34,933 nt of DNA from a virus (IMGVR_UViG_3300045988_150517), one strand, 5' to 3'; positions 3,304 to 23,906 are shown, numbered from the stretch's first letter. The notes: generated by a model not told the origin, from the letters alone. Numbers and translations are program-made.

Positions 3304-3447
3304 TTACTCATAATCTTCTTTAGTTATTTCTTTGTATTCTTCTGCCGTAATCCACTTTCCAACTGCATTATATACTCTTGCTTCATTCCAAATTCCATTA
3401 TCATAATAGTTTTTTACCTTTTCAAAATTTTTGCTATGTTCGTTCAT
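3304..3447 (-). CDS. xkdX: XkdX-family phage protein (47 aa)
   Basis: MNEHSKNFEKVKNYYDNGIWNEARVYNAVGKWITAEEYKEITKEDYE matches the XkdX pattern (..YY..G.W......V..G.IT.EEYkeIT). Too short to appear in the ORF track. Confidence 0.8.
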   Translation of the reverse strand: MNEHSKNFEKVKNYYDNGIWNEARVYNAVGKWITAEEYKEITKEDYE

Positions 3448-3450
3448 TGA

Positions 3451-3771
3451 CTACACCTCCTCAAGATCAACATCAGTCATCATTGCTAGATATTCTATAT
3501 CTGCTTTTGTTTTTATTTTATCAATTTCATCTGCAGATAATTGTCTTAATACAAAATAATAGCCATCTTCATAATGAACAATTTGTACTAATTCTACATG
3601 TTCAAGTTCTTCAGATGTTTTATCAGTTTCATTTTCAATTGTAATTTTTGATAATTTACCTTTAAAATCATCTTCAGTTATTTTTGTTTTTGAAATATAA
3701 TTATTTCCACTCAATTTTAAGTCTTTAAGTTGTGTTCCATCAGATAACGTAATTTTCCATGATTTTTCCAT
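3451..3771 (-). CDS. Hypothetical phage protein in the XkdW position (106 aa)
   Basis: Strong AAGGAGG RBS 7 nt before ATG 3771. Lies between the tail-fibre/DGR block and xkdX. Confidence 0.55.
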   Translation of the reverse strand: MEKSWKITLSDGTQLKDLKLSGNNYISKTKITEDDFKGKLSKITIENETDKTSEELEHVELVQIVHYEDGYYFVLRQLSADEIDKIKTKADIEYLAMMTDVDLEEV

Positions 3772-4877
3772 TTCGGTACCTCCTTAAATAAATCATAATA
3801 TAATTGCGACATATTACTTATTTGTTGCATTGACATTTTTTTATAATTTCCTGCCATCCAACTTTTAAAACTATTTTCTATATCGTTACTTTTCATTTTT
3901 CCTTTGTCCAATAGTCTTTTGTATGCTTTTAGTTTTCTTCTTTCTCGAGTTACTGTTTTTGTACTTATCTTTTTTATTATTCTTCCTGTTGGTGTTAGTG
4001 AATAATTTATTTGTAATACTTTAAATTGTTGAGATAATTTTACTATTCTTGTTTTCCTATCATTAACTATTAATCCTAGTTTACTTGATATAATTTTTAT
4101 TTCTTTTAGTAATTGCTTTAAAAATTCTTTATCTTGATGAATGATATAACTATCATCCGTATATCTTCCATAATATTTGCATCCTCTAACAATTTTTATA
4201 TAATTGTCTATTTGTGATGGATACGAAATTCCTATATTTTGAGATGGTTGACTTCCAATATCTACGCCTTTTCCATTTTTATTATCTATATTAAATACAT
4301 CAAATAGATTTTTTAAAATCCACATAGTAATTTTTGCTTCTTCAGGGTTTACTTTTCTTAAAAAATATTGTAACTTCTTTAAACATAAATCATGAGGAAT
4401 ACTTGCATAATATCCGCTAAAATCAATTAACAATATGTATCCCTCATTACTTTTATATTTTCTATAATATTGATGTAAGTGTGTTTCAAATCTTTTTCTA
4501 TGAAAAGCCACACCTCTATTCTTTTGACTTGCACCATTATCATAGATTAAATATGGAGAAATAGCTGGACTTAAAACATTATCGCAAAGTAAATGATTAA
4601 TTGTTTTATCAACCATATTATTACTTGTAATATGTCTTATTTTTCCTCGTTCATTTATAGTAAATTTTTTTCCTGCTACTGGTTTATATTTCCACTCTTT
4701 CAAATCTTTTAAAATTTGTGCTGTTTCTATCAAATGGTTCATTTCGAACAATTGTGATTGATATTTAAAAGGTGCTCCTTGAATTGCCTTTGTTCCAGCT
4801 TCATAAATTTTATTTGCATCATAAAAAATATTCATAAAAATCACTTTAATAGTATTACTGGTCGTAACCAAATACAT
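3717..4877 (-). CDS. DGR-type reverse transcriptase
   Basis: RT motifs ..LLIDFSGYYASI.., ..YDNGASQKNRGV.., ..GRYTDDSYII.. (YxDD), ..LGLIVNDRKTRIV... An alternative start at ATG 4835 (MNIFYDANKIY) is likely. It lies immediately downstream of the TR. Confidence 0.9.
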   Translation of the reverse strand: MYLVTTSNTIKVIFMNIFYDANKIYEAGTKAIQGAPFKYQSQLFEMNHLIETAQILKDLKEWKYKPVAGKKFTINERGKIRHITSNNMVDKTINHLLCDNVLSPAISPYLIYDNGASQKNRGVAFHRKRFETHLHQYYRKYKSNEGYILLIDFSGYYASIPHDLCLKKLQYFLRKVNPEEAKITMWILKNLFDVFNIDNKNGKGVDIGSQPSQNIGISYPSQIDNYIKIVRGCKYYGRYTDDSYIIHQDKEFLKQLLKEIKIISSKLGLIVNDRKTRIVKLSQQFKVLQINYSLTPTGRIIKKISTKTVTRERRKLKAYKRLLDKGKMKSNDIENSFKSWMAGNYKKMSMQQISNMSQLYYDLFKEVPKWKNHGKLRYLMEHNLKT

Positions 4878-4980
4878 AATGATTAGTATTTATCAATTCT
4901 GCTATTGAAGGGATAATCTTTCCTTTCCTTTTCCCATATCCATACGATGGAATCAAGTCCATATAAATAAATTGTATGGG

Positions 4981-5079
4981 TTGTGAAATCAGGACGAACA
5001 CCGTTGACATTCGAAGCGTTGTTGTAACTCGAATTACCATTGTTGCTGACATTCGCGAAATTCGTAGAAGAAACGACAT
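4981..5079 (-). repeat. DGR template repeat (TR); core 4991..5079
   Basis: Aligns with 5751..5849 (VR). The sense strand is rich in AAY codons (9 Asn codons in the phantom translation VVSSTNFANVSNNGNSSYNNASNVNGVRP). Confidence 0.9.
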
Positions 5080-5100
5080 ACAAAGATTACCCACTAATTA

Positions 5101-5613
5101 TTATTTTTTTATATTTTTTAAAAACCTATTGTCAGTTTGTCGAAGTGATTTTATCATATTAAATTCTTTTTGAATTTCTAGAACCAAATTCATATACTTA
5201 TTCAAATCAGCATATAAACATTCTCCTGCATATTGCAATTCGTCTTGAAGTGCATTACAACAAGCCATAGCTCTGTCCATTTCTATACGTCTTTCTTCAA
5301 ACTCTGACATATATGTTGGAAATATTGTATTTGCAATTCTTAAATGCCTACTTATTCCTGTTGCTAATTCTATTACATTGTCTGATACTCTATTTATTTG
5401 ATTTCTATAAAATTTATACATATTTTCTTTTATTCTTATTTGTTCCTTTTCATCAAGTCCTTTTATTCTATTGTTTATTTTCTCTTCTATTTTTGAAAAT
5501 GTTATATAAAAATTATTTTCTGCTAAATTTGTTACTGCCATTCTTATCATATATGCATTATGAATTGTTTGCAATTTTGATTCTTTTCTTTCACTTTTCT
5601 TTATCTCTGACAT
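5101..5613 (-). CDS. avd: DGR accessory variability determinant (Avd)-like four-helix-bundle protein (170 aa)
   Basis: Lies between the target gene and the TR. Helical, with ..RIANTIFP....ERRIEMDRAMACCNALQDELQYA.. resembling the Avd / 23S-IVS four-helix-bundle family. Longer than a typical Avd. Confidence 0.6.
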   Translation of the reverse strand: MSEIKKSERKESKLQTIHNAYMIRMAVTNLAENNFYITFSKIEEKINNRIKGLDEKEQIRIKENMYKFYRNQINRVSDNVIELATGISRHLRIANTIFPTYMSEFEERRIEMDRAMACCNALQDELQYAGECLYADLNKYMNLVLEIQKEFNMIKSLRQTDNRFLKNIKK

Positions 5614-5712
5614 TGTAAAATAATACTATTTCTCCTTTTCTATTTTTTCAACAGAAATTATATCATTTTTATTTTCTTATTTTAACTATCTTGAAAGCTA
5701 ACTATACTATAT

Positions 5713-5733
5713 GACAGGGCATAAAGCCCTGTC
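5713..5733 (-). promoter_or_regulatory. GC-rich hairpin just downstream of the VR (DGR target-recognition hairpin candidate; may also terminate)
   Basis: GACAGGGC-ATAAA-GCCCTGTC, 8-bp stem, 10 nt past the target gene stop codon. Confidence 0.6.
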
Positions 5734-5742
5734 GATGTCTGA

Positions 5743-6603
5743 TTACACGATTAGGAAAGCAGGACGAACACCGCAGACATTCGAAGCGCTGACGTAACTC
5801 GAATTACCATAGTCGCCGACATACGCGAAAGACGCAGAAGAAACGACATCTCTTAACCAGTACCAATATCTATCTCCAGCATCATTTCTAGCAACAATCG
5901 AATCATGTCTTAACCTGAATAATGATAATTGAGAATTGTCTATTTGATAATTGTTAGGAAATGTAGATCCATTTGTAGCATTTTTGAATATTTGACAACC
6001 ATAAACCATTATCTCATTCATCAATTCTATATCAGAATCGTACCATGTTCCTCCGGTCTCACATCCATTTGAAACTGCATTTTGTAAATGATTTCTATGC
6101 TTTAATATGTGACTTGTTTCAAAATCATTTTTTATTACTGTTTTAAATTGTGCTAAATTTGTTTTATACATCGCACTACCAATATAAGCTCCATCAGTTA
6201 TATTACTAGCATTCATTTGTGCTGTTCCCATTATTCTTTCCGGTATCATCAAAACATGAGGTTTTGTACATTCTGTATCTCCCATGTGTAATCTATAATT
6301 AATATCGGCTACTAAATATTTTCTACCACTTGTTTTTCCTATGATATAATCTCCAACGAATATATCATCAAATGTTCCTGCTGCAATTTGTTTACTTAAT
6401 GTCCCATCATAAAATAAATCAGTAATATCTTTTCCTCTATAAATACTATTATGTGCACCTGCATTTTTTTCTACAAGTGCAGTAAGTAATGTGGAAATTT
6501 TAACTTTTTTAGTTGTTCCATTTTCCACATCAACAACAGGTAATATATCTGTTGTTTGAAGATTCTTTAATTCTTCAAGTTCTGAAATTTTTTTAATTCC
6601 CAT
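5743..6603 (-). CDS. DGR target: tail-fibre / receptor-binding protein with a C-terminal variable (C-type-lectin-like) region
   Basis: N-terminus MGIKKISELEELKNLQTTDILPVVD..GTTKKVKISTLL is tail-fibre-like. The C-terminus ..WYWLRDVVSSASFAYVGDYGNSSYVSASNVCGVRPAFLIV carries the VR. Confidence 0.85.
   Translation of the reverse strand: MGIKKISELEELKNLQTTDILPVVDVENGTTKKVKISTLLTALVEKNAGAHNSIYRGKDITDLFYDGTLSKQIAAGTFDDIFVGDYIIGKTSGRKYLVADINYRLHMGDTECTKPHVLMIPERIMGTAQMNASNITDGAYIGSAMYKTNLAQFKTVIKNDFETSHILKHRNHLQNAVSNGCETGGTWYDSDIELMNEIMVYGCQIFKNATNGSTFPNNYQIDNSQLSLFRLRHDSIVARNDAGDRYWYWLRDVVSSASFAYVGDYGNSSYVSASNVCGVRPAFLIV
5751..5849 (-). repeat. DGR variable repeat (VR); core 5761..5849
   Basis: 89-bp core versus TR has 12 mismatches, all at TR T on the + strand (A on the sense strand). 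The 10-bp 3' extension adds 2 more A-site changes and 1 non-A change. Confidence 0.9.
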
Positions 6604-6627
6604 AATTGTAAAATCCTCCTTATTTTT

Positions 6628-7494
6628 TTACATTCCAACTACTAATCTTGTATTATCCTCTGTTGCAATATAATATCCATCTTCTGTTATAATTGGCGAA
6701 ATTGCATCTTCTAAATTCTCTCTTGTTTCATTTAAAATAGTAGTTAAATTATCTATTTCTAATTGTATTTTTCCTGCTGCATCTTCTGACAACTGATTTT
6801 TCATCTTTTCAAACCAATTAGTAAACTCCTGTTCTTCAGTATTAAAGAAATTTGCCATAATATTTTTAAATTCTGTAAAATATGTATCGTGTTCCGCTTC
6901 TTGATCTTCATAATATTTCTTATATGCCTCTTGCCATTGTGCATATAATGTTGATGTATCAACTTGATATATTAAACTTGTAACCCAAGGACATTCACTA
7001 CTACCTCTACAGTCTTTTATTAAGTCTTGTGTAATTTTTATACAAGATGGACTAATCGTAATATCAGCTAATCTAAATTCAATGATGTTTTCTTCAGTAT
7101 TTATTGATGGATGTACTGGGTTGCTTGATGCAGTCCCTTTTCTATATACTATATTTCCTGCTCTTCCTAATTGAGTTTTATCCATTTGAGCTATAATACT
7201 GTCTATTCTAGTTAATACATCAGAATTTTGTGCTGTAGTTATTGTCAAATTGCTTGGATTTTCAAACCACTTATCCCCAATTAGTGCATAACCTGCTGAA
7301 ACTATAATATTCATCCCATTATTTGCAGTAAAAACTTGCAAATAATCGGAAGGTTCACCTTTTGGAGTTGCAAAAACACCATTACTTATTAATTTTCTAT
7401 ATGGTCTATTCATATCATCTGCTGAATAAACACGATCATTATTTATCGCATCAAAAAAACCAGCAGTAACTTCAAATTTTACATCGTTTTCCAT
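6628..7494 (-). CDS. Tail fibre / baseplate-associated structural protein (288 aa)
   Basis: N-terminal ..AGFFDAINNDRVYSADDMNRPYRKLISNGVF.. motif seen in Firmicute phage tail proteins, plus a coiled-coil C-terminus. Lies in the tail module. Confidence 0.5.
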   Translation of the reverse strand: MENDVKFEVTAGFFDAINNDRVYSADDMNRPYRKLISNGVFATPKGEPSDYLQVFTANNGMNIIVSAGYALIGDKWFENPSNLTITTAQNSDVLTRIDSIIAQMDKTQLGRAGNIVYRKGTASSNPVHPSINTEENIIEFRLADITISPSCIKITQDLIKDCRGSSECPWVTSLIYQVDTSTLYAQWQEAYKKYYEDQEAEHDTYFTEFKNIMANFFNTEEQEFTNWFEKMKNQLSEDAAGKIQLEIDNLTTILNETRENLEDAISPIITEDGYYIATEDNTRLVVGM

Positions 7495-7503
7495 TTTTGC
7501 CTC

Positions 7504-8664
7504 CTATTCACTTTTTATATTTTGAAATGTCGGTTCCATTTTATATCCATTATCATCTATACTCTCTAATATTTCAGATATCCTAACATTAATTGAAATT
7601 CCGTATTCATTTACAATATTTACAATATCACCTAGATTATAATCATCTTTATATGTATAATTAGCTCCTATAATAACATCTCCTGTAAAAGATGTAATTG
7701 ATTTATATTCAGACATTTTTTCATATCCAACACTTTTTAGGTTTTCAATATAAATATTATTACATAATACTACTTCAGTAATTTCTCCATCATCATTTTT
7801 TGTTAAAATAGCTATATTAGTTCCGTTTACTTGATAATATATTGTGCCATTTATATTCTTTTCATTACCATTAGGATAACTACTTAATAATTCATCATAA
7901 TCAATTGAACTTGAAACATCTCTTGCATCCACATATAATTCATGTCTGTTAATTCCTGTCCCACTACCAATTGTAACAGTTTTTCTTTCTATTCCTTCGC
8001 CTTCTCCTGCAACAATAGCAATATTTTTTATATTGCTATCATCTTTGGTATAATCCGTTGTAGATATGTTATCATAGTTTTGTGAAAATTGAACATAATC
8101 ACTTCTATCTTTCCCTTTATATAAAGAAAATACAAATTTTCTATCTTTTATAACAATTTTATATCCCCACTCGTAATTCTGACATAATTCTTGAATTTTT
8201 GTACCTACATAATCATAAGTAACTTGTTCTCTTATTGTTTCTTTAAATCCTACTTTATCTGCTAATACAAAGTTTTCTATTTTTCTTTCTTTGTTGGTAG
8301 GATTTATTATAGAATCCGTAATTAAAGTTCTTATATAATCTTCAACTAATCCATTAAAATTCGTTTGTTTGGCTACTATTCTTGAATTTAGTATATTTTT
8401 TATATCTGTACCTGTTATAATTAATTGATCTCCATTTTCTTCATCAGTTTTTATTTCAATTTTTGTTATTTCGCAAACCATATCGTCTTTTTTCCTAGCA
8501 ATATATTTGCATTCTTTTATTTTTTTGATATTTTCAATAGTTGCAGAAATAACAAGTTCACAATCTCCCAATTCATTATATCTAGGAACCCATAAAATAC
8601 TTGAATACATATCTATTATGTATTTTTTAATTAAATCTTTATCTAACAAATATAATTCATCCAT
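7504..8664 (-). CDS. Tail tip protein (Siphovirus Gp37-like)
   Basis: MDELYLLDKDL..IDMYSSILWVPRYNELGDCELVIS resembles the Sipho_Gp37 N-terminus. It follows the Dit gene. Confidence 0.5.
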   Translation of the reverse strand: MDELYLLDKDLIKKYIIDMYSSILWVPRYNELGDCELVISATIENIKKIKECKYIARKKDDMVCEITKIEIKTDEENGDQLIITGTDIKNILNSRIVAKQTNFNGLVEDYIRTLITDSIINPTNKERKIENFVLADKVGFKETIREQVTYDYVGTKIQELCQNYEWGYKIVIKDRKFVFSLYKGKDRSDYVQFSQNYDNISTTDYTKDDSNIKNIAIVAGEGEGIERKTVTIGSGTGINRHELYVDARDVSSSIDYDELLSSYPNGNEKNINGTIYYQVNGTNIAILTKNDDGEITEVVLCNNIYIENLKSVGYEKMSEYKSITSFTGDVIIGANYTYKDDYNLGDIVNIVNEYGISINVRISEILESIDDNGYKMEPTFQNIKSE

Positions 8665-8670
8665 ATAATT

Positions 8671-9531
8671 CTATACCCCTAAATATACACGATAATATTT
8701 AAAACTAATATCCACTAGCATATCCTTCTCTCCATCATCAGCTAAAAAACTAAATCTATTATCTCCAATTCCTAATTGAAAAAATGTTGATTCACTTCTA
8801 ACTTGTGGAATTAAATTATATTCAACCGCTTCTCTAGTTAAAATTACCGATTTTTTTCCTCTATTACAATTAATTATTAATTTATCATTTTTCATAAACT
8901 CATAATCAATTATAAAATTTTCTCCTGTTTCAATATTACGAATTTCTAGCTTATTTACAGTTCCCATAAATCCAATATTAATAATTAAACCTGTTTCACT
9001 TTCACTATCGTTTATAACATTTGTTACCTTTTCAAGATCTACAGAAGAAATTGCAATAGGTTGATTACTATTTATAGAAAATGGGAAAGAGAATTTTTTT
9101 ATTGTTTTTGAAATACTTTGAACTATGGTATTAATATCTTTAAAATATGGATCAGGACATAAAATAGAAATCTGTGCAACTTGTTTTTGAACGAATATTG
9201 GAACTTCAAAAGTTTGCACATATCCTTCTATAAAAACATTTCTGTTATCATCTTCATAATAAATTTTACACCATTGTTTATTTCTAAAATATTTATAAAG
9301 TTTTAATCTATTTTGAGAAACATCTCCATTTATATATACTGTAATAACAATTTCCCTATTGGGAATTTTTGAACTATTAAAGGCAGAACCATCTCCATTT
9401 GCATAGGTTGAAGTATTTATATTAGCATTTGGAGGGGTTATTCCTTCTATATTTGCTATTTGATAATCTTCTTCGTTATCTGTTAATTCAAGGACTGCTC
9501 CTTTAATATTTTCAACTTTTAAAGTAAACAT
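8671..9531 (-). CDS. Distal tail protein (Dit) / phage tail family protein
   Basis: Immediately downstream of the tape measure gene, 286 aa. Call rests on synteny. Confidence 0.6.
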   Translation of the reverse strand: MFTLKVENIKGAVLELTDNEEDYQIANIEGITPPNANINTSTYANGDGSAFNSSKIPNREIVITVYINGDVSQNRLKLYKYFRNKQWCKIYYEDDNRNVFIEGYVQTFEVPIFVQKQVAQISILCPDPYFKDINTIVQSISKTIKKFSFPFSINSNQPIAISSVDLEKVTNVINDSESETGLIINIGFMGTVNKLEIRNIETGENFIIDYEFMKNDKLIINCNRGKKSVILTREAVEYNLIPQVRSESTFFQLGIGDNRFSFLADDGEKDMLVDISFKYYRVYLGV

Positions 9532-9545
9532 TTTTGATTTCCCTC

Positions 9546-12500
9546 CTATGCATTTACTAGATTTAATAAATTCCTTGTCTGCCTATATAATTCTAGTCTA
9601 GATGGTTGTTTTGGAGCATTTATTACTTGAGTAAAATTATTAACATTAGATGTTGAATTAGATATATTGTTAATATTAGAAGCATTGTTTTTCATTTCTT
9701 CTTTCATATCATTTGCAACAGCTTTTATCCAGCCTTTATTTCTTTCAAGAGGAACAACCGCTTCTGCTCCATTTCCTTCAAGTAAACCAACTTGTCCTTT
9801 TTCTAATACCCCACCTCTATATAATTTTGGTATATTTAATGTATTGATTCTTGATATATTTACACCTGGAATTGCATTGATTATTCCTATCGCACCGTTA
9901 ATCATATTAATAAATCCATTTACTGTGTTTTCTATCATTCCTAATAATCCATTAATACCTGATTTAACAGCTCCACTAATTGCATTTCCTATATTAGTTC
10001 CAATGTTTGAAAATTTATCACTTATTGTATTCCATAATCCTCCGAAAAAATTACCAATATTGCTAAAAATACCAGTAATATTATTCCAAGCTTCTCTAAA
10101 TCTATCTCCAAACCATCCTCCTACATTAGAAAATACATTTTGTATTCCTTGCCAAGCACCTTGAAAAAATGATCCTAATTGTTCAGGTAATTGTGCTAAT
10201 CCTTGGAATATAGAACTAATTATCTGTGGCAACGCCTTTAATAATTCCAAGCATATAGTTGGTATTGCTTGAACTAATGCCATAAATAATTGAATTGCAC
10301 CTTGTAGTAATACTGGTATATTTTGTATTAAAACATTAATTATAGTAGTAACAATAGTTGGTATTTGAGGAATAAGTGCTTGTATAATCAATGGTATTGC
10401 TTGAATAATAGCCATTAACAATTGCACTGCTCCTTGTAATACAATTGGTAAATTTTCAACTAAGCCAGTAATAATAGTATTTATTATTGTTGGAATTGCA
10501 TCTACTAACGCAGGAATTATAAGTGGTATAGCTTCAACTATTGAATTTAATAATTGTACTGCTCCTTCTATCAATCTTGGAATTGCATCTGTTAATCCAT
10601 ATAAAATAGTATTTATTATTTCATCAAGATTTTCTGTTAATGCAGATATTATCTCAGGGATTGCTTCAATAATTCCCATAAAGAAACTAAAGGCTGCATC
10701 GATAAGATCTGGCAAACTGTCAACCAATACTCCAATAATCTGATTTACAACTTGTACTAATGCAATAACTAGGTTTGGAATTGCATCTGTTAATCCATTT
10801 ACAAGACTTATAATAATTTGAACTCCTGCTTGAAGTAATTGTGGAATTGTCATCTGCAAAACATCTATTATTTGAGGTATAATACCAATTATTGCATCAA
10901 CAACCGTTGGTAAAGCTTCAATTATTCCCTGTAGTAATTTATTCATTCCATCCATTACATCAGGTAATAGTTCTGTTATTAAATCAACAATTTGTGGGAA
11001 TAACTCGATGAGTAATGATATAATACTATCAATTACAATTTTTACTTTTGGAACTATATTTTGAATAACAGTTCCTATACTATCTATTAAATTTTCCATT
11101 AAAGTATCAAAATTTGCATTTTCATCTGCCATGCCAGTTAATAAATTACTCCATGCAGACTTCATTGCTCCAATAGATCCTTGAATTGTTGTACTTGCTT
11201 CTTTTGCAGTAGTTCCTGTTATGCCCATATTATCTTGAACCAAATGTATAGCTTCAACAACATCAGCATAACTTTCAATTGTCAAATTTCCAGCTTGTCC
11301 TTGTGCTTTTGCTAATTTGTTAGCATCTCCAATAAGTCTTTCCATTTCACTTTTAGTTCCACCATATCCAAGCTTCAAATTATCAAGCATTGTATAGTTT
11401 TGTTTTGCAAAACCTTGATATGCATTTTGTATAGATTCCATTGATGTACCCATTTTATTTGCATTGTCAGACATATCTGTAATTGCTTTATCAGCTACTT
11501 CTGCTGATTTTGCAGTATCACCATTTAAACTTTGTAATAATGATGCAGAAAATGAAGTTACAGTGTCCATATATTCATTTGCAGAAAGCCCAGCAGTTTT
11601 ATATGCATTATTAGCATAATTTTCTACAATGCCTGAGCTGTCCTTAAATAATGTTTCAACACCACCAACTAATTGCTCATAATCAGAATAACTAGCTATT
11701 GCCTGTTTACCAGCATTAAGTAAAGCACCACCTAATTTCAAAATCCCATTTATGCACCCTTCAACCGCATCTGCTGCTAAATTTGCTAATGCTCCTTTAA
11801 GAACTGTAAAACCACCATTTGAAGCATCATCTGCTGATTTCCCAGCACTATCGATACTTTTATCTAATTTATCAGCAGCACTATCAAGTTCCTGCATTTT
11901 GGTTTTATTATCATTTAAATCACCTGATAATGTTTTAATTTCTTTTGCTAAATTTTTGGCTTCTGATGAATTTTTACCATATTGTAGTACCGCATTCTTA
12001 TATGCCTCTTTTGTATCATCTACCGCTTTTTGTTGATCGTCTATTGTGTCAGATAATTTACTTGTACTACTATTAGCTCTTTCTTCAGCTTTTTGTAAAT
12101 TTTGTAATTGTGTACTATAATTACTGTATTCTTTTTCAATTTTATTTACCGCAGCCTCTTGATTGTTAATAGTAACTGTTAAATTCGATATTTGTTGTTT
12201 TATGCTTGAATGAGCTTGTTCTGCGGAACTCAATTGACTTTGTAAATTTCTAACTTCATCAGAATTTTCTCCATAGGCTCTTTTTGCATCTTCTAGTTTT
12301 TTCTTCAAATTTTCAATTTCACTAGCAGACTGCTTTTCATATTTTTGTGCAGTTTGTAACTGCGTTTGATATGATTGCAATTTACTAACTTGTGCTTCCA
12401 TCGTAGATTTTAATTGTTTCAACTTTGCACTTAAACCATCTGTAGACTTTGTCCAATCATCCATACCAGAACTTGCTTTTTTAAATTCGGAATTTGCGAG

Positions 12501-12590
12501 TTTAATATAATTATTAGCTTCAGATATATTCTTTTTTAAATCCGATATATCCAATTTATATCGAGTTGTAATATCTTCTCCTTTTGCCAC
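9546..12590 (-). CDS. Tail tape measure protein (1014 aa, GTG start)
   Basis: N-terminal coiled coil, central Ala/Ile/Pro-rich tandem helical repeats (..AIPxIIxAL..), Gly-rich C-terminus. RBS GAAAGGAGG. Confidence 0.9.
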   Translation of the reverse strand: MAKGEDITTRYKLDISDLKKNISEANNYIKLANSEFKKASSGMDDWTKSTDGLSAKLKQLKSTMEAQVSKLQSYQTQLQTAQKYEKQSASEIENLKKKLEDAKRAYGENSDEVRNLQSQLSSAEQAHSSIKQQISNLTVTINNQEAAVNKIEKEYSNYSTQLQNLQKAEERANSSTSKLSDTIDDQQKAVDDTKEAYKNAVLQYGKNSSEAKNLAKEIKTLSGDLNDNKTKMQELDSAADKLDKSIDSAGKSADDASNGGFTVLKGALANLAADAVEGCINGILKLGGALLNAGKQAIASYSDYEQLVGGVETLFKDSSGIVENYANNAYKTAGLSANEYMDTVTSFSASLLQSLNGDTAKSAEVADKAITDMSDNANKMGTSMESIQNAYQGFAKQNYTMLDNLKLGYGGTKSEMERLIGDANKLAKAQGQAGNLTIESYADVVEAIHLVQDNMGITGTTAKEASTTIQGSIGAMKSAWSNLLTGMADENANFDTLMENLIDSIGTVIQNIVPKVKIVIDSIISLLIELFPQIVDLITELLPDVMDGMNKLLQGIIEALPTVVDAIIGIIPQIIDVLQMTIPQLLQAGVQIIISLVNGLTDAIPNLVIALVQVVNQIIGVLVDSLPDLIDAAFSFFMGIIEAIPEIISALTENLDEIINTILYGLTDAIPRLIEGAVQLLNSIVEAIPLIIPALVDAIPTIINTIITGLVENLPIVLQGAVQLLMAIIQAIPLIIQALIPQIPTIVTTIINVLIQNIPVLLQGAIQLFMALVQAIPTICLELLKALPQIISSIFQGLAQLPEQLGSFFQGAWQGIQNVFSNVGGWFGDRFREAWNNITGIFSNIGNFFGGLWNTISDKFSNIGTNIGNAISGAVKSGINGLLGMIENTVNGFINMINGAIGIINAIPGVNISRINTLNIPKLYRGGVLEKGQVGLLEGNGAEAVVPLERNKGWIKAVANDMKEEMKNNASNINNISNSTSNVNNFTQVINAPKQPSRLELYRQTRNLLNLVNA

Positions 12591-22441: not shown

Positions 22442-23725
22442 TTACTTTTTTTCTAACTCTGCTTTTTTTCCTGTTAGTGTTTCCCAGCGTTTTACTATAA
22501 CATCACAATATTTTGGATCTAATTCCATCATATAGCAAGGTCTACTTAATTGTTCACAAGCTATTAGAGTTGATCCGCTTCCACCAAATAAATCTACGAC
22601 ACATTCATCTATTCTACTACTATTTTTTATTAATCTACTTAGTAGCTTTATTGGTTTCATTGTTGGATGTAAATCATTTATTGTAGGTTTATTTTCTTCT
22701 ATAATTGTTGTACTAATTTTATCTGCATATATTTCTTCTAGCATTTTTACTAGTTCTTCTTTCTTTAATTTTCTAAAATCTTGATGCTTATCTTCTATAA
22801 CTGTTGCTTGTGTTCTATCATCTATGAAATAATGTGCTGCACCATCTTTCCAGCCATAAAGACATGGCTCATGTTTCCATTGATAGTCCTGATTTCCTAA
22901 TATAAACATATTTTTATTCCATATTATCTCTTGTCTGACTTTTAATCCATTTTCATTTAATGCTTTTTCAAAATTTATATGTTCTCTTGAAGCAAACCAT
23001 ATATAAAATGCTCCACCTGCTTTCAGTATCTCTGATAGATTTTTAAATGCTTTTGTTAAAAATTCTCCAAATGCCTTATTGTCCATATTATCATTTTGAA
23101 TTTTCATTCCTTGACTATTTTCAACATTCACATTATAAGGTGGATCCGTTAATACCATATCCGCTTCTCTATTATTCATCAGTCGCTCTACTGCCTCTTT
23201 ATTGGTACTATCTCCACATACTAGCCTATGTTTTCCTAATATCCATGTATCTCCTATTTTTGTTATAGGTTCTTTTATTTCTTCTAGTTCTTTTTCTACA
23301 TCAAAATCATCTTCTGTTGCTTCTAATGTATCATTAAAAATCTCATTCAATTCCTCTGCACTAAAACCTGTTATATCCATATCAAATTCTAGTTCTTTTA
23401 ATTCTGCAAGTATTTTTTCTAATTTTTCATTATCCCAAATACCATTTATTTTATTTAATGCAAGGTTCAATGCTTTTTCATGTGTTTTGTCAAGATTTTG
23501 GACACTACATTCTATTTTCTTATATCCTAAATCCTCTAATACTGTTAATCCTTGATGTCCACCTATAACGGTCATATCTGAATTTATAACAACTGGTACA
23601 ACATATCCAAATTCAACAATGCTTTTTTTCAATTGTTGATATTCTGGATCTGCTGGTGTTAATTCTTTTCTTGGATTGTATTCTGCTCTTTTTAGCTGAC
23701 TTATTTCTACTACTCTTATTTCCAT
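22442..23725 (-). CDS. ParB-like nuclease domain fused to a DNA methyltransferase (DPPY, N6A/N4C type)
   Basis: Likely start ATG 23725 after TAAGGAG. ParB-N: ..ISQLKRAEYNPRK... MTase motif IV: VLTDPPYNV. SAM-binding: ..VVDLFGGSGST... Confidence 0.85.
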   Translation of the reverse strand: MEIRVVEISQLKRAEYNPRKELTPADPEYQQLKKSIVEFGYVVPVVINSDMTVIGGHQGLTVLEDLGYKKIECSVQNLDKTHEKALNLALNKINGIWDNEKLEKILAELKELEFDMDITGFSAEELNEIFNDTLEATEDDFDVEKELEEIKEPITKIGDTWILGKHRLVCGDSTNKEAVERLMNNREADMVLTDPPYNVNVENSQGMKIQNDNMDNKAFGEFLTKAFKNLSEILKAGGAFYIWFASREHINFEKALNENGLKVRQEIIWNKNMFILGNQDYQWKHEPCLYGWKDGAAHYFIDDRTQATVIEDKHQDFRKLKKEELVKMLEEIYADKISTTIIEENKPTINDLHPTMKPIKLLSRLIKNSSRIDECVVDLFGGSGSTLIACEQLSRPCYMMELDPKYCDVIVKRWETLTGKKAELEKK

Positions 23726-23825
23726 AATTGTACTCCTTAAAACAACTTGATTCATATCTGCAGTTTTTGCATTCTCGTGTCATACATCTACTTAAATTCA
23801 TAGGCATATACCTCATTTGTATTAT

Positions 23826-23898
23826 TGGTTGCGGACAGAGGATTCGAACCTCGTCTAGGAGTTATGAGCCCCTTGTGCTGCCATTGCACCATCTCCGC
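23826..23898 (-). tRNA. tRNA-like gene, anticodon CAU (Met or lysidine-modified Ile2), with non-canonical stems
   Basis: GCGGAGA-TG-GTGC-AATGGCA-GCAC-A-AGGGG-CTCATAA-CTCCT-AGAC-GAGG-TTCGAAT-CCTC-TGTCCGC-A. D, anticodon and T-loop features are good. The acceptor stem has a G.G mismatch and the T stem is only 4 bp (or one nt is shared). Confidence 0.65.
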
Positions 23899-23906
23899 AA
23901 TATAAT

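What the first reader, a model, noticed from the sequence alone, without database searches (positions are those of the whole stretch)
3717..6603. Complete diversity-generating retroelement inserted in the tail-fibre / lysis junction
On the - strand the order is: target gene (5743..6603, VR at its 3' end), Avd-like gene (5101..5613), TR (4981..5079), RT (3717..4877). This is the canonical DGR layout.

The RT has YTDD and the DGR-typical ..SQ..RG.. block. The target has a tail-fibre-type N-terminus, so the element most likely diversifies host-receptor specificity (tropism switching, as in Bordetella phage BPP-1).

DGRs are an established class, but functional phage-borne examples in AT-rich Firmicutes are little studied. 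This Avd is unusually long at 170 aa.
Basis: partly seen in the sequence, partly recalled or inferred. Interest (0 to 1): 0.7.

Follow-up and report, generated by a model that had tools for sequence, protein, structure and literature searches.

The report
Active DGR diversifying a prophage tail protein
This is a complete diversity-generating retroelement in a gut Clostridia prophage that rewrites the tip of a tail protein at adenine-templated positions; it is an ordinary member of a well-known class, except that its helper protein belongs to an unannotated family that is Avd-like in predicted fold only.

Summary
On the minus strand the order is target gene (5743-6603), accessory gene (5101-5613), TR (4985-5079) and RT (3717-4835 or 4877).

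- **Repeat pair:** TR and VR (5755-5849) are 95 nt in register. All 13 differences lie at TR adenines (P about 7e-10).
- **Template design:** all 24 TR adenines sit in codon positions 1 or 2, nine of them in AAY codons. No stop codon can arise, and about 1e13 protein variants are possible.
- **RT:** its only solved-structure relative is the Bordetella phage DGR RT. It carries IGSQPSQ and YTDD, and it scores far below the group II intron and DRT cut-offs.
- **Activity in nature:** loci with an identical or near-identical TR carry different VRs that differ only at TR-adenine sites. The target's 90 %-identity protein cluster has 4656 members. In 16 aligned sequences (15 cluster members plus the window protein), 9 of the 10 most variable columns are the AAY codons.
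- **Target hairpin:** a G+C-rich hairpin follows the target stop codon. Its structure is conserved across relatives but its sequence is not.
- **Accessory protein:** the 'Avd' matches no Avd family by sequence. It is basic, helical and Avd-like only in predicted fold, and it defines a family of about 500 clusters that is always found in the order target-accessory-TR-RT.

Verdict: a real, probably active DGR and a new member of a known kind. Interest is modest.

The parts
5743..6603 (-). DGR target gene (286 aa), a putative tail receptor-binding protein with a DUF6273 C-terminal domain
   Evidence: ORF. Pfam DUF6273 at residues 224-285, E 1.2e-5, above the gathering score. 2227 homologues, some 423 aa long with an N-terminal PF12571 domain. 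It lies directly after the tail module.
5755..5849 (-). Variable repeat (VR), codons 252-283 of the target
   Evidence: 95-nt repeat of the TR with 13 of 13 mismatches at TR adenines. Hypervariable in natural relatives at the same codons.
5755..5773 (-). IMH-like 3' end of the VR (CGGTGTTCGTCCTGCTTTC); the TR counterpart at 4985-5003 differs by one fixed A/C (4989/5759)
   Evidence: This segment lies after the last diversified adenine. The A-to-C difference is present in all 8 VRs compared and again in phage Fontainebleau. It therefore behaves as a fixed IMH/IMH* marker rather than as mutagenesis. Its function is inferred.
5713..5733 (-). G+C-rich hairpin/cruciform (GACAGGGC-TTTAT-GCCCTGTC) starting 10 nt after the target stop codon
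   Evidence: Sequence; predicted fold of -16.7 kcal/mol for the 58-nt flank. Two compensatory pairs in L008. Unrelated stem sequences occupy the same position in 11 of 13 relatives folded; L012 and L017 carry theirs further downstream. No T-run follows, and the scan does not call it a terminator.
5101..5613 (-). Accessory gene: a 170-aa basic helical-bundle protein, Avd-like in position and predicted fold only
   Evidence: pI 9.05. AF2 pLDDT 82 with five helices. The best Foldseek hits are 23S-rRNA-IVP/Avd-type bundles 2rld and 2gsc, and BFVD 'Avd-like protein', at E 0.01-0.1. No Avd family matches by HMM or hhalign. It always lies between target and TR-RT in relatives.
4985..5079 (-). Template repeat (TR)
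   Evidence: It has 24 adenines, none in a third codon position, nine of them in AAY codons. It is identical in L004 and differs by 1 nt in L002, although their VRs differ.
4836..4984 (-). TR-RT spacer, the presumed structured 3' part of the DGR RNA; 4836-4899 is the most conserved stretch of the cassette
   Evidence: 91-94 % identity across loci against 59-87 % for the coding segments (RT 77-86 %). The consensus fold has 3 compensatory pairs among 6 sequences, which is weak evidence. GATTTCACAAC at the TR 3' end is conserved even in the G+C-rich Fontainebleau locus.
3717..4877 (-). DGR reverse transcriptase (386 aa from the first ATG; probably 372 aa from the ATG at 4835)
   Evidence: RVT_1 E 1.3e-12. 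PHROG 1423 E 2e-51. The only PDB sequence match is bRT 8ub7, E 2.6e-7. BLASTP against BPP-1 Brt: 23 % identity, E 1e-13 over 300 aa, including IGSxxSQ and YxDD.

Best explanation
This is a complete and probably currently active diversity-generating retroelement carried by a temperate siphovirus-like prophage of a low-G+C gut Clostridia bacterium.

Proposed mechanism, step by step:
1. An accessory-TR-spacer-RT transcript is made (inferred).
2. The RT, helped by the basic helical-bundle accessory protein, copies the TR RNA into cDNA and misincorporates opposite template adenines. This step is inferred from the BPP-1 paradigm; the sequence pattern it leaves is shown here.
3. The cDNA replaces the VR at the 3' end of the 286-aa target gene. 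Targeting is by the G+C-rich IMH-like VR end and the hairpin/cruciform just downstream. The elements are shown; their role is inferred.

Because every TR adenine lies in codon position 1 or 2, up to about 1e13 stop-free variants of 13 residues can be produced. Those residues lie in the C-terminal DUF6273 domain of the target. This most likely alters the receptor specificity of a tail protein, that is, host tropism (inferred).
For: - **Adenine-specific TR/VR differences:** 13 of 13, P 7e-10.
- **Template design:** all 24 TR adenines in codon positions 1 or 2, nine in AAY codons, no stop codon reachable.
- **RT:** closest to bRT and carrying the DGR motif IGSxxSQ plus YTDD. It is not a group II intron or DRT family member.
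- **Same TR, different VRs:** L004 has an identical TR and L002 differs by 1 nt, yet the VRs differ only at TR-adenine sites.
- **Population variation:** the target's 90 % cluster has 4656 members. In 16 aligned sequences (15 cluster members plus the window protein), 9 of the 10 most variable columns are the AAY codons, with 5-9 residues each. The 254 positions outside the VR have at most 3 residues each.
- **Hairpin after the VR:** conserved in structure, with compensatory or entirely different stems.
- **Conserved cassette order:** target-accessory-TR-RT holds in cassettes whose accessory proteins are only 27-43 % identical, and A-biased repeats recur there.
- **Context:** a tail-module position, and relatives of the target fused to a PF12571 domain.
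Against: - No experiment or read-level data come from this element itself. The VR variation is seen between assemblies, not within one population.
- The accessory protein cannot be linked to Avd by sequence. hhalign against a bAvd profile gives probability 0.1 %, and only 1 of 58 members gives a marginal PF05635 hit. The fold matches have weak E-values of 0.01-0.1, and helical bundles are common.
- The target's C-type-lectin fold was not recovered: pLDDT is 61.7 overall and below 50 in the VR, and no Foldseek match is meaningful.
- The hairpin loop has 5 nt (TTTAT), unlike the GRNA tetraloop that BPP-1 requires (PMC3240598).
Confidence: 0.9

Rival explanations
1. The cassette is a fossil DGR. 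It was once active, but the present copy no longer diversifies, and the TR/VR differences are a frozen record.
For: No within-population read data exist for this element. The 5-nt loop differs from the loop that BPP-1 needs (PMC3240598). No canonical Avd is present.
Against: All ORFs are intact and the catalytic YTDD is present. Elements with an identical or 1-nt-different TR carry different VRs. There are 4656 distinct sequences in one 90 % cluster, with variation concentrated at AAY codons. This implies recent and repeated diversification in this lineage.
Confidence: 0.07
2. The 170-aa ORF is an unrelated phage gene that merely sits between the target and the TR. The RT would then work alone or with a host factor, like the DGRs that lack accessory genes.
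For: No sequence similarity to any Avd family. The Foldseek E-values are not significant. Wu et al. describe a simplest architecture, Architecture A, that lacks accessory genes, reported as 29 % (75 of 372) of DGRs (PMC5758913).
Against: In every contig long enough to judge, even at 27-36 % identity, the gene lies immediately upstream of the TR-RT and downstream of a GVRPA-type target. It is basic, like Avd (pI 9.05; family mean 8.6). Avd-family bundles are the top-ranked hits in two independent structure libraries. The DGR-free phage JCL1032 lacks it at the equivalent junction.
Confidence: 0.2
3. The diversified protein is not the host-receptor binder. It could be an adhesin for another ligand (mucus, host glycans), or a protein expressed from the lysogen, so that the DGR does not switch tropism.
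For: No structural or functional evidence for receptor binding was obtained here. The neighbouring upstream gene (6628-7494, phrog_1220) and the Gp37-like protein could be the primary receptor-binding proteins. Non-tropism DUF6273 targets ('tentaclins') have been proposed (PMC10743442).
Against: The gene is the last one of the tail module. Close homologues carry an N-terminal PF12571 domain; its tail-collar fibre identity is from my own recall. In JCL1032 the protein in the equivalent position is annotated as possibly associated with host specificity.
Confidence: 0.25

Closest known systems
Bordetella phage BPP-1 DGR (mtd-avd-TR-brt)
   Same: - Identical gene order and strand logic: target with a 3' VR, a small basic accessory gene, the TR, a spacer and the RT (one search compared).
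- Adenine-specific TR/VR differences and an AAY-rich TR.
- A G+C-rich VR 3' end followed by a hairpin.
- The RT is the only solved-structure relative (8ub7), with shared IGSxxSQ and YxDD motifs.
- Position at the end of the tail module.
   Different: - The RTs are only 23 % identical.
- The accessory protein is 170 aa against 128 aa, with no detectable similarity to bAvd/PF22296.
- The target is a 286-aa DUF6273 protein, not Mtd.
- The TR is 95 nt against 134 nt.
- The hairpin loop is the 5-nt TTTAT instead of a GRNA tetraloop (PMC3240598).
DGRs of gut Firmicutes (pro)phages with DUF6273 targets (Faecalibacterium phages Roos, Pioen, Lelie; phages nd4/nd12)
   Same: - DUF6273 target with the VR at the C-terminal end of the domain (PMC11792537, PMC10743442).
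- Gut Clostridia hosts.
- RTs about 30-32 % identical.
   Different: - These are distant relatives only.
- tblastn finds no homologue of the window's accessory protein in those phage records; the only hit in 50,697 records is Fontainebleau.
- This window has one target and one VR, whereas nd4 and nd12 have two.
Acutalibacter phage Fontainebleau (ON453893), an inducible prophage of A. muris in the OMM12 consortium
   Same: - Same synteny from the tape measure to the amidase.
- Accessory protein 43 % identical and RT 47 % identical.
- Target ending in ...WWLRDV..GVRPAFLIY.
- An A-biased TR/VR pair (16 of 19 mismatches at TR adenines), with the same fixed GGATTTCAC / GGCTTTCCT boundary and a hairpin with a 5-nt loop.
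   Different: - The locus is G+C-rich (sequence).
- The record annotates the target and accessory genes as hypothetical, and the paper that names the phage does not mention a DGR.
- It is a culturable system, whereas the window's relatives are known only from metagenome-assembled genomes.
Avd / 23S rRNA-IVP four-helix-bundle family (PF05635; PDB 2rld, 2gsc) and bAvd (PF22296)
   Same: - Small, basic, all-helical bundle encoded immediately upstream of the TR.
- These structures are the top-ranked Foldseek hits in PDB and, as 'Avd-like protein', in BFVD.
   Different: - About 40-60 residues longer, with an extra N-terminal helix-loop region and 30-40-residue helices.
- No HMM or profile-profile similarity.
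- A conserved motif of its own: ANxIxP...ExxERR...C...RQxDNRF.
CH1 accessory proteins of Avd-less DGRs (Wu et al. 2018, PMC5758913)
   Same: Similar size (160-169 aa), no identifiable motifs, and found in DGRs without avd.
   Different: CH1 proteins are acidic (pI 4.7 +/- 0.2). This protein is basic (pI 9.05; family mean 8.6).

Membership tests
Diversity-generating retroelement (DGR) | TR/VR repeat pair whose differences are (almost) exclusively at TR adenines | tested here: met
   95 nt, 13 of 13 mismatches at TR adenines, P 7e-10.
Diversity-generating retroelement (DGR) | Reverse transcriptase of the DGR clade ([I/L/V]GxxxSQ motif, YxDD), not a group II intron, retron or defence RT | tested here: met
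   IGSQPSQ and YTDD are present. The only PDB sequence relative is bRT 8ub7 (BLASTP E 1e-13). The group II RT model scores 55.7 bits against a cut-off of 300, Drt3a 41.6 against 200, and Drt5 27.1 against 550. No formal phylogeny was made.
Diversity-generating retroelement (DGR) | VR inside the 3' part of a protein-coding target, with TR adenines placed so that mutagenesis changes amino acids without creating stop codons | tested here: met
   The VR covers codons 252-283 of 286. All 24 adenines are in codon positions 1 or 2, nine in AAY codons, and no stop codon is reachable.
Diversity-generating retroelement (DGR) | IMH / IMH* at the 3' ends of VR and TR, and a G+C-rich hairpin/cruciform downstream of the VR | tested here: met
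   The last 19 nt of VR and TR are constant apart from one fixed A/C difference, present in all loci. An 8-bp G+C-rich stem starts 10 nt after the stop codon, with covariation across relatives. The loop differs from the GRNA consensus (PMC3240598). Function was not tested.
Diversity-generating retroelement (DGR) | Evidence of ongoing diversification (VR heterogeneity with a constant TR) | tested here: met
   same or near-same TR with different VRs in L002, L004 and the window; a 4656-member cluster in which variation is concentrated at AAY codons. This is between-assembly evidence, not within-sample evidence.
Avd (accessory variability determinant; PF05635 / PF22296) | Sequence membership in an Avd family model | tested here: not met
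   The window protein has no Pfam match at E <= 0.01, no NCBIfam match at E <= 0.1 and no PHROG match at E <= 0.001. Of 58 family members, 1 gives PF05635 at E 0.015 and none is listed for PF22296. hhalign against a bAvd profile gives probability 0.1 %. No PDB sequence hit to an Avd.
Avd (accessory variability determinant; PF05635 / PF22296) | Small basic four-helix bundle encoded next to the TR/RT | tested here: inconclusive
   pI 9.05. AF2 helical model with pLDDT 82. The top Foldseek hits are 2rld and 2gsc (target-normalised TM 0.65-0.82) and BFVD 'Avd-like protein', but E is only 0.01-0.1. The position upstream of the TR is conserved.
Avd (accessory variability determinant; PF05635 / PF22296) | Pentamer that binds the RT and the DGR RNA and is needed for cDNA synthesis | not testable with these tools
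C-type-lectin-fold DGR variable protein | CLec fold with the VR residues on a solvent-exposed binding surface | tested here: inconclusive
   Pfam DUF6273 matches the VR-bearing C-terminus, and the literature reports that DUF6273 models resemble C-lec (PMC10743442). Our own model was poor (pLDDT 61.7; below 50 over residues 196-269) and the fold search was uninformative.

The most novel reading that the evidence does not exclude
The 170-aa accessory protein may represent a large, so far unannotated clade of DGR accessory factors. It spans about 500 clusters at 50 % identity, in gut Clostridia phages. It would be either a remote Avd homologue beyond sequence detection or an independent basic helical-bundle analogue. 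It may have co-evolved with a different target-site hairpin (a 5-nt pyrimidine-rich loop instead of the GRNA tetraloop). If so, some DGRs counted as 'Avd-less' are not accessory-free, and the pairing of accessory protein with hairpin loop would point to what reads the loop during retrohoming.
Probability: 0.4. Interest if true: 0.5.

Novelty: new member of a known kind. Interest (0 to 1): 0.3.

Why it matters
DGRs are the only known natural system of targeted protein hypermutation in prokaryotes and their viruses. In gut phages they are thought to drive host-range switching.

This element adds little to the concept. It does offer three useful things:
- **Natural evidence of activity:** a constant TR with thousands of VR variants.
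- **A culturable relative:** Acutalibacter phage Fontainebleau in the OMM12 mouse model, where this lineage could be tested.
- **A distinct accessory family and hairpin loop:** comparing these with BPP-1 could reveal which component recognises the target hairpin, a question left open in Guo et al. 2011 (PMC3240598).

Tried and rejected
- **Megablast of 3400-6700 against 50,697 phage records:** no match. The relatives are too distant at the DNA level; tblastn later found Fontainebleau.
- **Second VR or remote target in the window:** none found when scoring non-A TR positions on both strands.
- **Avd by sequence:** Pfam, NCBIfam, PHROGs, PDB phmmer/hmmsearch with one protein and with 29- and 58-sequence profiles, and hhalign against BPP-1 Avd alone and as a 25-sequence profile. 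All negative.
- **CH1 identity:** rejected on charge (pI 9.05 against 4.7). The supplementary sequences of Wu et al. are not held, so no direct comparison was possible.
- **Target structure:** the AF2 model was too poor (pLDDT 61.7) and the Foldseek PDB hits were meaningless, with best E 1.6. The PDB profile search was also empty.
- **Hairpin as an intrinsic terminator:** rejected. No T-run follows it and the scan does not call it.
- **orf106 (3451-3771) as a DGR component:** rejected. A homologue sits after the host-specificity protein of Lactobacillus phage JCL1032, and no RT is annotated within 5 kb of it.
- **Rfam:** only the tRNA-Met matched; no known RNA family covers the TR/spacer.
- **Promoter scan:** not above chance, 27 sites against 30.7 expected, so no promoter is claimed.
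Full report
**1. Observation**

The minus strand of 3717-6603 carries, in this order:
- a 286-aa ORF (5743-6603);
- a 170-aa ORF (5101-5613);
- a non-coding stretch;
- a 386-aa ORF (3717-4877).

The repeat finder returns one strong direct repeat, 4985-5079 against 5755-5849. It is 95 nt long, 86 % identical, ungapped, and the copies are 770 nt apart. Read on the minus strand, all 13 mismatches are an A in the copy next to the RT and a non-A in the copy inside the 286-aa ORF. With 24 A among 95 positions, the chance that 13 random mismatches all fall on A is 7e-10.

Scoring only the non-A TR positions across both strands of the whole window finds no further copy. There is therefore one TR and one VR.

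**2. The template is built for mutagenesis**

In the frame of the target, all 24 TR adenines lie in codon positions 1 or 2. By chance this has probability (2/3)^24 = 6e-5. The TR encodes:
- nine AAY codons, at 258, 261, 264, 265, 267, 271, 272, 275 and 277;
- four single-A codons, at 257, 263, 269 and 270.

Randomising the adenines reaches 15 amino acids at each AAY codon and never a stop codon. This gives about 9.8e12 protein variants.

**3. The RT**

- It matches RVT_1 (E 1.3e-12) and PHROG 1423 'reverse transcriptase' (E 2e-51).
- Against all PDB chains, the only match at E <= 1e-3 is the Bordetella phage DGR RT (8ub7, E 2.6e-7). I recall that the PDB also holds group II intron, retron and defence RT structures; none of these appeared.
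- Direct BLASTP against BPP-1 Brt gives 23 % identity over 300 residues (E 1e-13). It aligns IGSQPSQ with IGSLTSQ and YTDD with YMDD.
- NCBIfam models score far below their cut-offs: group II intron RT 55.7 against 300, Drt3a 41.6 against 200, Drt5 27.1 against 550.

I did not build a phylogeny.

The annotated start is doubtful. Relatives align from residue 14-15. The 64 nt upstream of the second ATG (4836-4899) are 91-94 % identical across loci, whereas the coding segments compared are only 59-87 % identical (RT segments 77-86 %). This suggests a non-coding RNA element and a true start at 4835.

**4. Evidence that the element is active in nature**

A genome-collection scan with the RT found nine related loci in gut Clostridia MAGs from human, deer, mouse and rabbit samples.
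- L004 has a TR identical to the window's. L002 differs by one base, which is shared with its own VR.
- Even so, the three VRs differ from each other, and only at TR-adenine positions.
- In every locus with a recognisable pair, the TR/VR mismatches are at TR adenines: L001 13/13, L002 12/12, L003 10/10, L008 11/11.

At the protein level:
- The target's 90 %-identity cluster holds 4656 distinct sequences.
- In 16 aligned sequences (15 cluster members plus the window protein, 93-98 % identical), the nine AAY codons carry 5-9 residues each. The next most variable column is 270 (TAC), with 4.
- The 254 positions outside the VR carry at most 3 residues each.

This is heterogeneity between assemblies; I could not examine reads.

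**5. Cis elements**

*VR and TR 3' ends.* The last 19 nt of VR and TR (CGGTGTTCGTCCTG[C/A]TTTC) follow the last diversified adenine. The single A (TR) against C (VR) difference is the same in all eight VRs compared. It is also the same in the distantly related, G+C-rich Acutalibacter phage locus. It therefore behaves as a fixed IMH/IMH* distinction rather than as mutagenesis.

*Hairpin.* Ten nt after the stop codon lies GACAGGGC-TTTAT-GCCCTGTC (5733-5713).
- L008 keeps the hairpin through two compensatory pairs.
- More distant cassettes have unrelated G+C-rich stems of 6-10 bp, with loops of 4-6 nt that are mostly 5 nt. In 11 of the 13 relatives folded the stem occupies the same position; in L012 and L017 it lies further downstream.
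- It is not followed by a T-run and is not called as a terminator.
- This matches the hairpin/cruciform shown to be required for BPP-1 retrohoming, where stem structure but not stem sequence matters (PMC3240598).
- In that work the loop is a GRNA tetraloop, and changing its sequence or enlarging it by as little as 2 nt abolished homing. Here the loop is 5 nt and pyrimidine-rich.

*Spacer.* The TR-RT spacer has a predicted consensus fold with three compensatory pairs among six sequences. This is too few to claim a structure.

**6. The accessory protein**

This is the one non-routine part. The 170-aa protein has:
- no match in Pfam, NCBIfam, PHROGs or PDB sequences;
- no PDB match for 29- or 58-sequence profiles;
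- only one marginal PF05635 hit (E 0.015) and no listed PF22296 hit among 58 family members;
- hhalign probability of 0.1 % against BPP-1 Avd, alone or as a 25-sequence profile.

It is not the acidic CH1 protein described for Avd-less DGRs. Its pI is 9.05 and the family mean is 8.6, against 4.7 for CH1.

The AlphaFold model is confident (pLDDT 82, pTM 0.75) and shows helices at 13-32, 39-50, 55-96, 102-132 and 137-169. Foldseek ranks Avd-type structures first in two independent libraries:
- PDB: 2rld and 2gsc. I recall these as PF05635-type (23S rRNA-IVP) bundles; the table calls 2rld an 'S23 ribosomal protein family' protein. Target-normalised TM is 0.65-0.82.
- BFVD: 'Avd-like protein' at ranks 1, 3 and 20.

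The E-values are only 0.01-0.1, and helical bundles are common.

An exhaustive profile search finds 509 clusters at 50 % identity. I looked at six distant members (27-36 % identical). In all four contigs long enough to show the downstream side, the gene is followed within 190-360 nt by an RT. Wherever the upstream gene was translated, it ends in the ...WWLR..VS...GVRPA... VR motif. A-biased repeats recur in two of these contigs, L012 and L013.

I conclude that this is the functional equivalent of Avd for this DGR lineage. It is probably a remote homologue, but membership of the Avd families is not demonstrated.

**7. The target and its context**

*Gene neighbourhood.*
- Upstream: tape measure (9546-12590), Dit (8671-9531), a Sipho_Gp37-like tail protein (7504-8664) and a phrog_1220 protein (6628-7494).
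- Downstream of the RT: a 106-aa acidic ORF (3451-3771), an XkdX-like ORF (3304-3447), holin-like ORFs and an endolysin (1420-2406).
- The window also carries a portal, a major head protein, a repressor and an integrase, so it is a temperate siphovirus-like prophage.

*Placement of the cassette.* The 106-aa ORF has a homologue in Lactobacillus phage JCL1032. There it directly follows the protein annotated as possibly associated with host specificity, and no RT is annotated within 5 kb.

*The target itself.*
- Its C-terminus matches Pfam DUF6273. This domain is already reported as a DGR target in Faecalibacterium and other gut phages, and is modelled as C-lectin-like (PMC10743442, PMC11792537).
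- Some 80 %-identical homologues replace the short N-terminus with a PF12571 domain. I recall PF12571 as a phage tail-collar fibre family.
- My own model of the target was poor (pLDDT 61.7) and its fold search was uninformative. The C-lectin fold and the receptor-binding role therefore remain inferred.

**8. Closest known and novelty**

The closest isolated relative is Acutalibacter phage Fontainebleau (ON453893), an inducible prophage of the OMM12 consortium.
- It has the same synteny. Its accessory protein is 43 % identical and its RT 47 % identical.
- It has an A-biased TR/VR pair (16 of 19 mismatches) and a hairpin with a 5-nt loop.
- Its record annotates the target and accessory genes as hypothetical, and the paper naming it does not mention a DGR.

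DGRs in gut phages, including those of Firmicutes, are widely documented. I therefore file this as a new member of a known kind. The possible added value is the unannotated Avd-like accessory family and its non-GRNA hairpin loop.

Noticed in passing
window 3451-3771 (-): A 106-aa acidic ORF (pI 4.6) overlaps the last 55 nt of the RT gene. It is conserved at 43-48 % identity after the RT in distant cassettes (L013, Fontainebleau). It also follows the host-specificity protein of Lactobacillus phage JCL1032, where no RT is annotated within 5 kb. It is therefore a phage tail/lysis-junction gene of unknown function, not a DGR part.
   Followed up: yes
window 4836-4899 (-): The 64 nt just upstream of the probable RT start are the most conserved stretch of the whole cassette (91-94 % against 59-87 % for coding segments). 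They contain a small hairpin (TGGTTACGACCA) with one compensatory change in L007. This may be part of the structured DGR RNA or a translational control element.
   Followed up: partly
window 23826-23899 (-): A tRNA-Met (CAT) gene lies inside the prophage, between the DNA methyltransferase gene and the early genes (ARAGORN and Rfam agree).
   Followed up: no
window 22442-23755 (-): A 437-aa protein combines a ParB-like N-terminal domain with a DNA methyltransferase domain (phrog_498, E 4e-160).
   Followed up: no
window 6628-7494 (-): The 288-aa protein just upstream of the DGR target matches phrog_1220, labelled 'head protein', but it lies in the tail module between the Gp37-like tail protein and the target. 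The same label and position occur in phage Fontainebleau. The PHROG label is probably misleading.
   Followed up: no
L010 1-1400 and 1665-3604: An unrelated Bacteroidales DGR was picked up by the RT scan. It has three ~200-nt repeat copies (117-316, 672-873, 1173-1377). A 229-aa ORF lies directly upstream of the RT; by eye its C-terminal half resembles a canonical Avd, but this was not tested. It makes a useful contrast to the window's accessory protein.
   Followed up: no
L009 4655-5179: The most distant Bacilli relative (RT 44 % identical) shows three consecutive repeat segments about 280 nt apart, with mixed (not purely A-biased) mismatches, upstream of its RT. These may be tandem duplicated VR-like segments or a decayed pair.
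   Followed up: no
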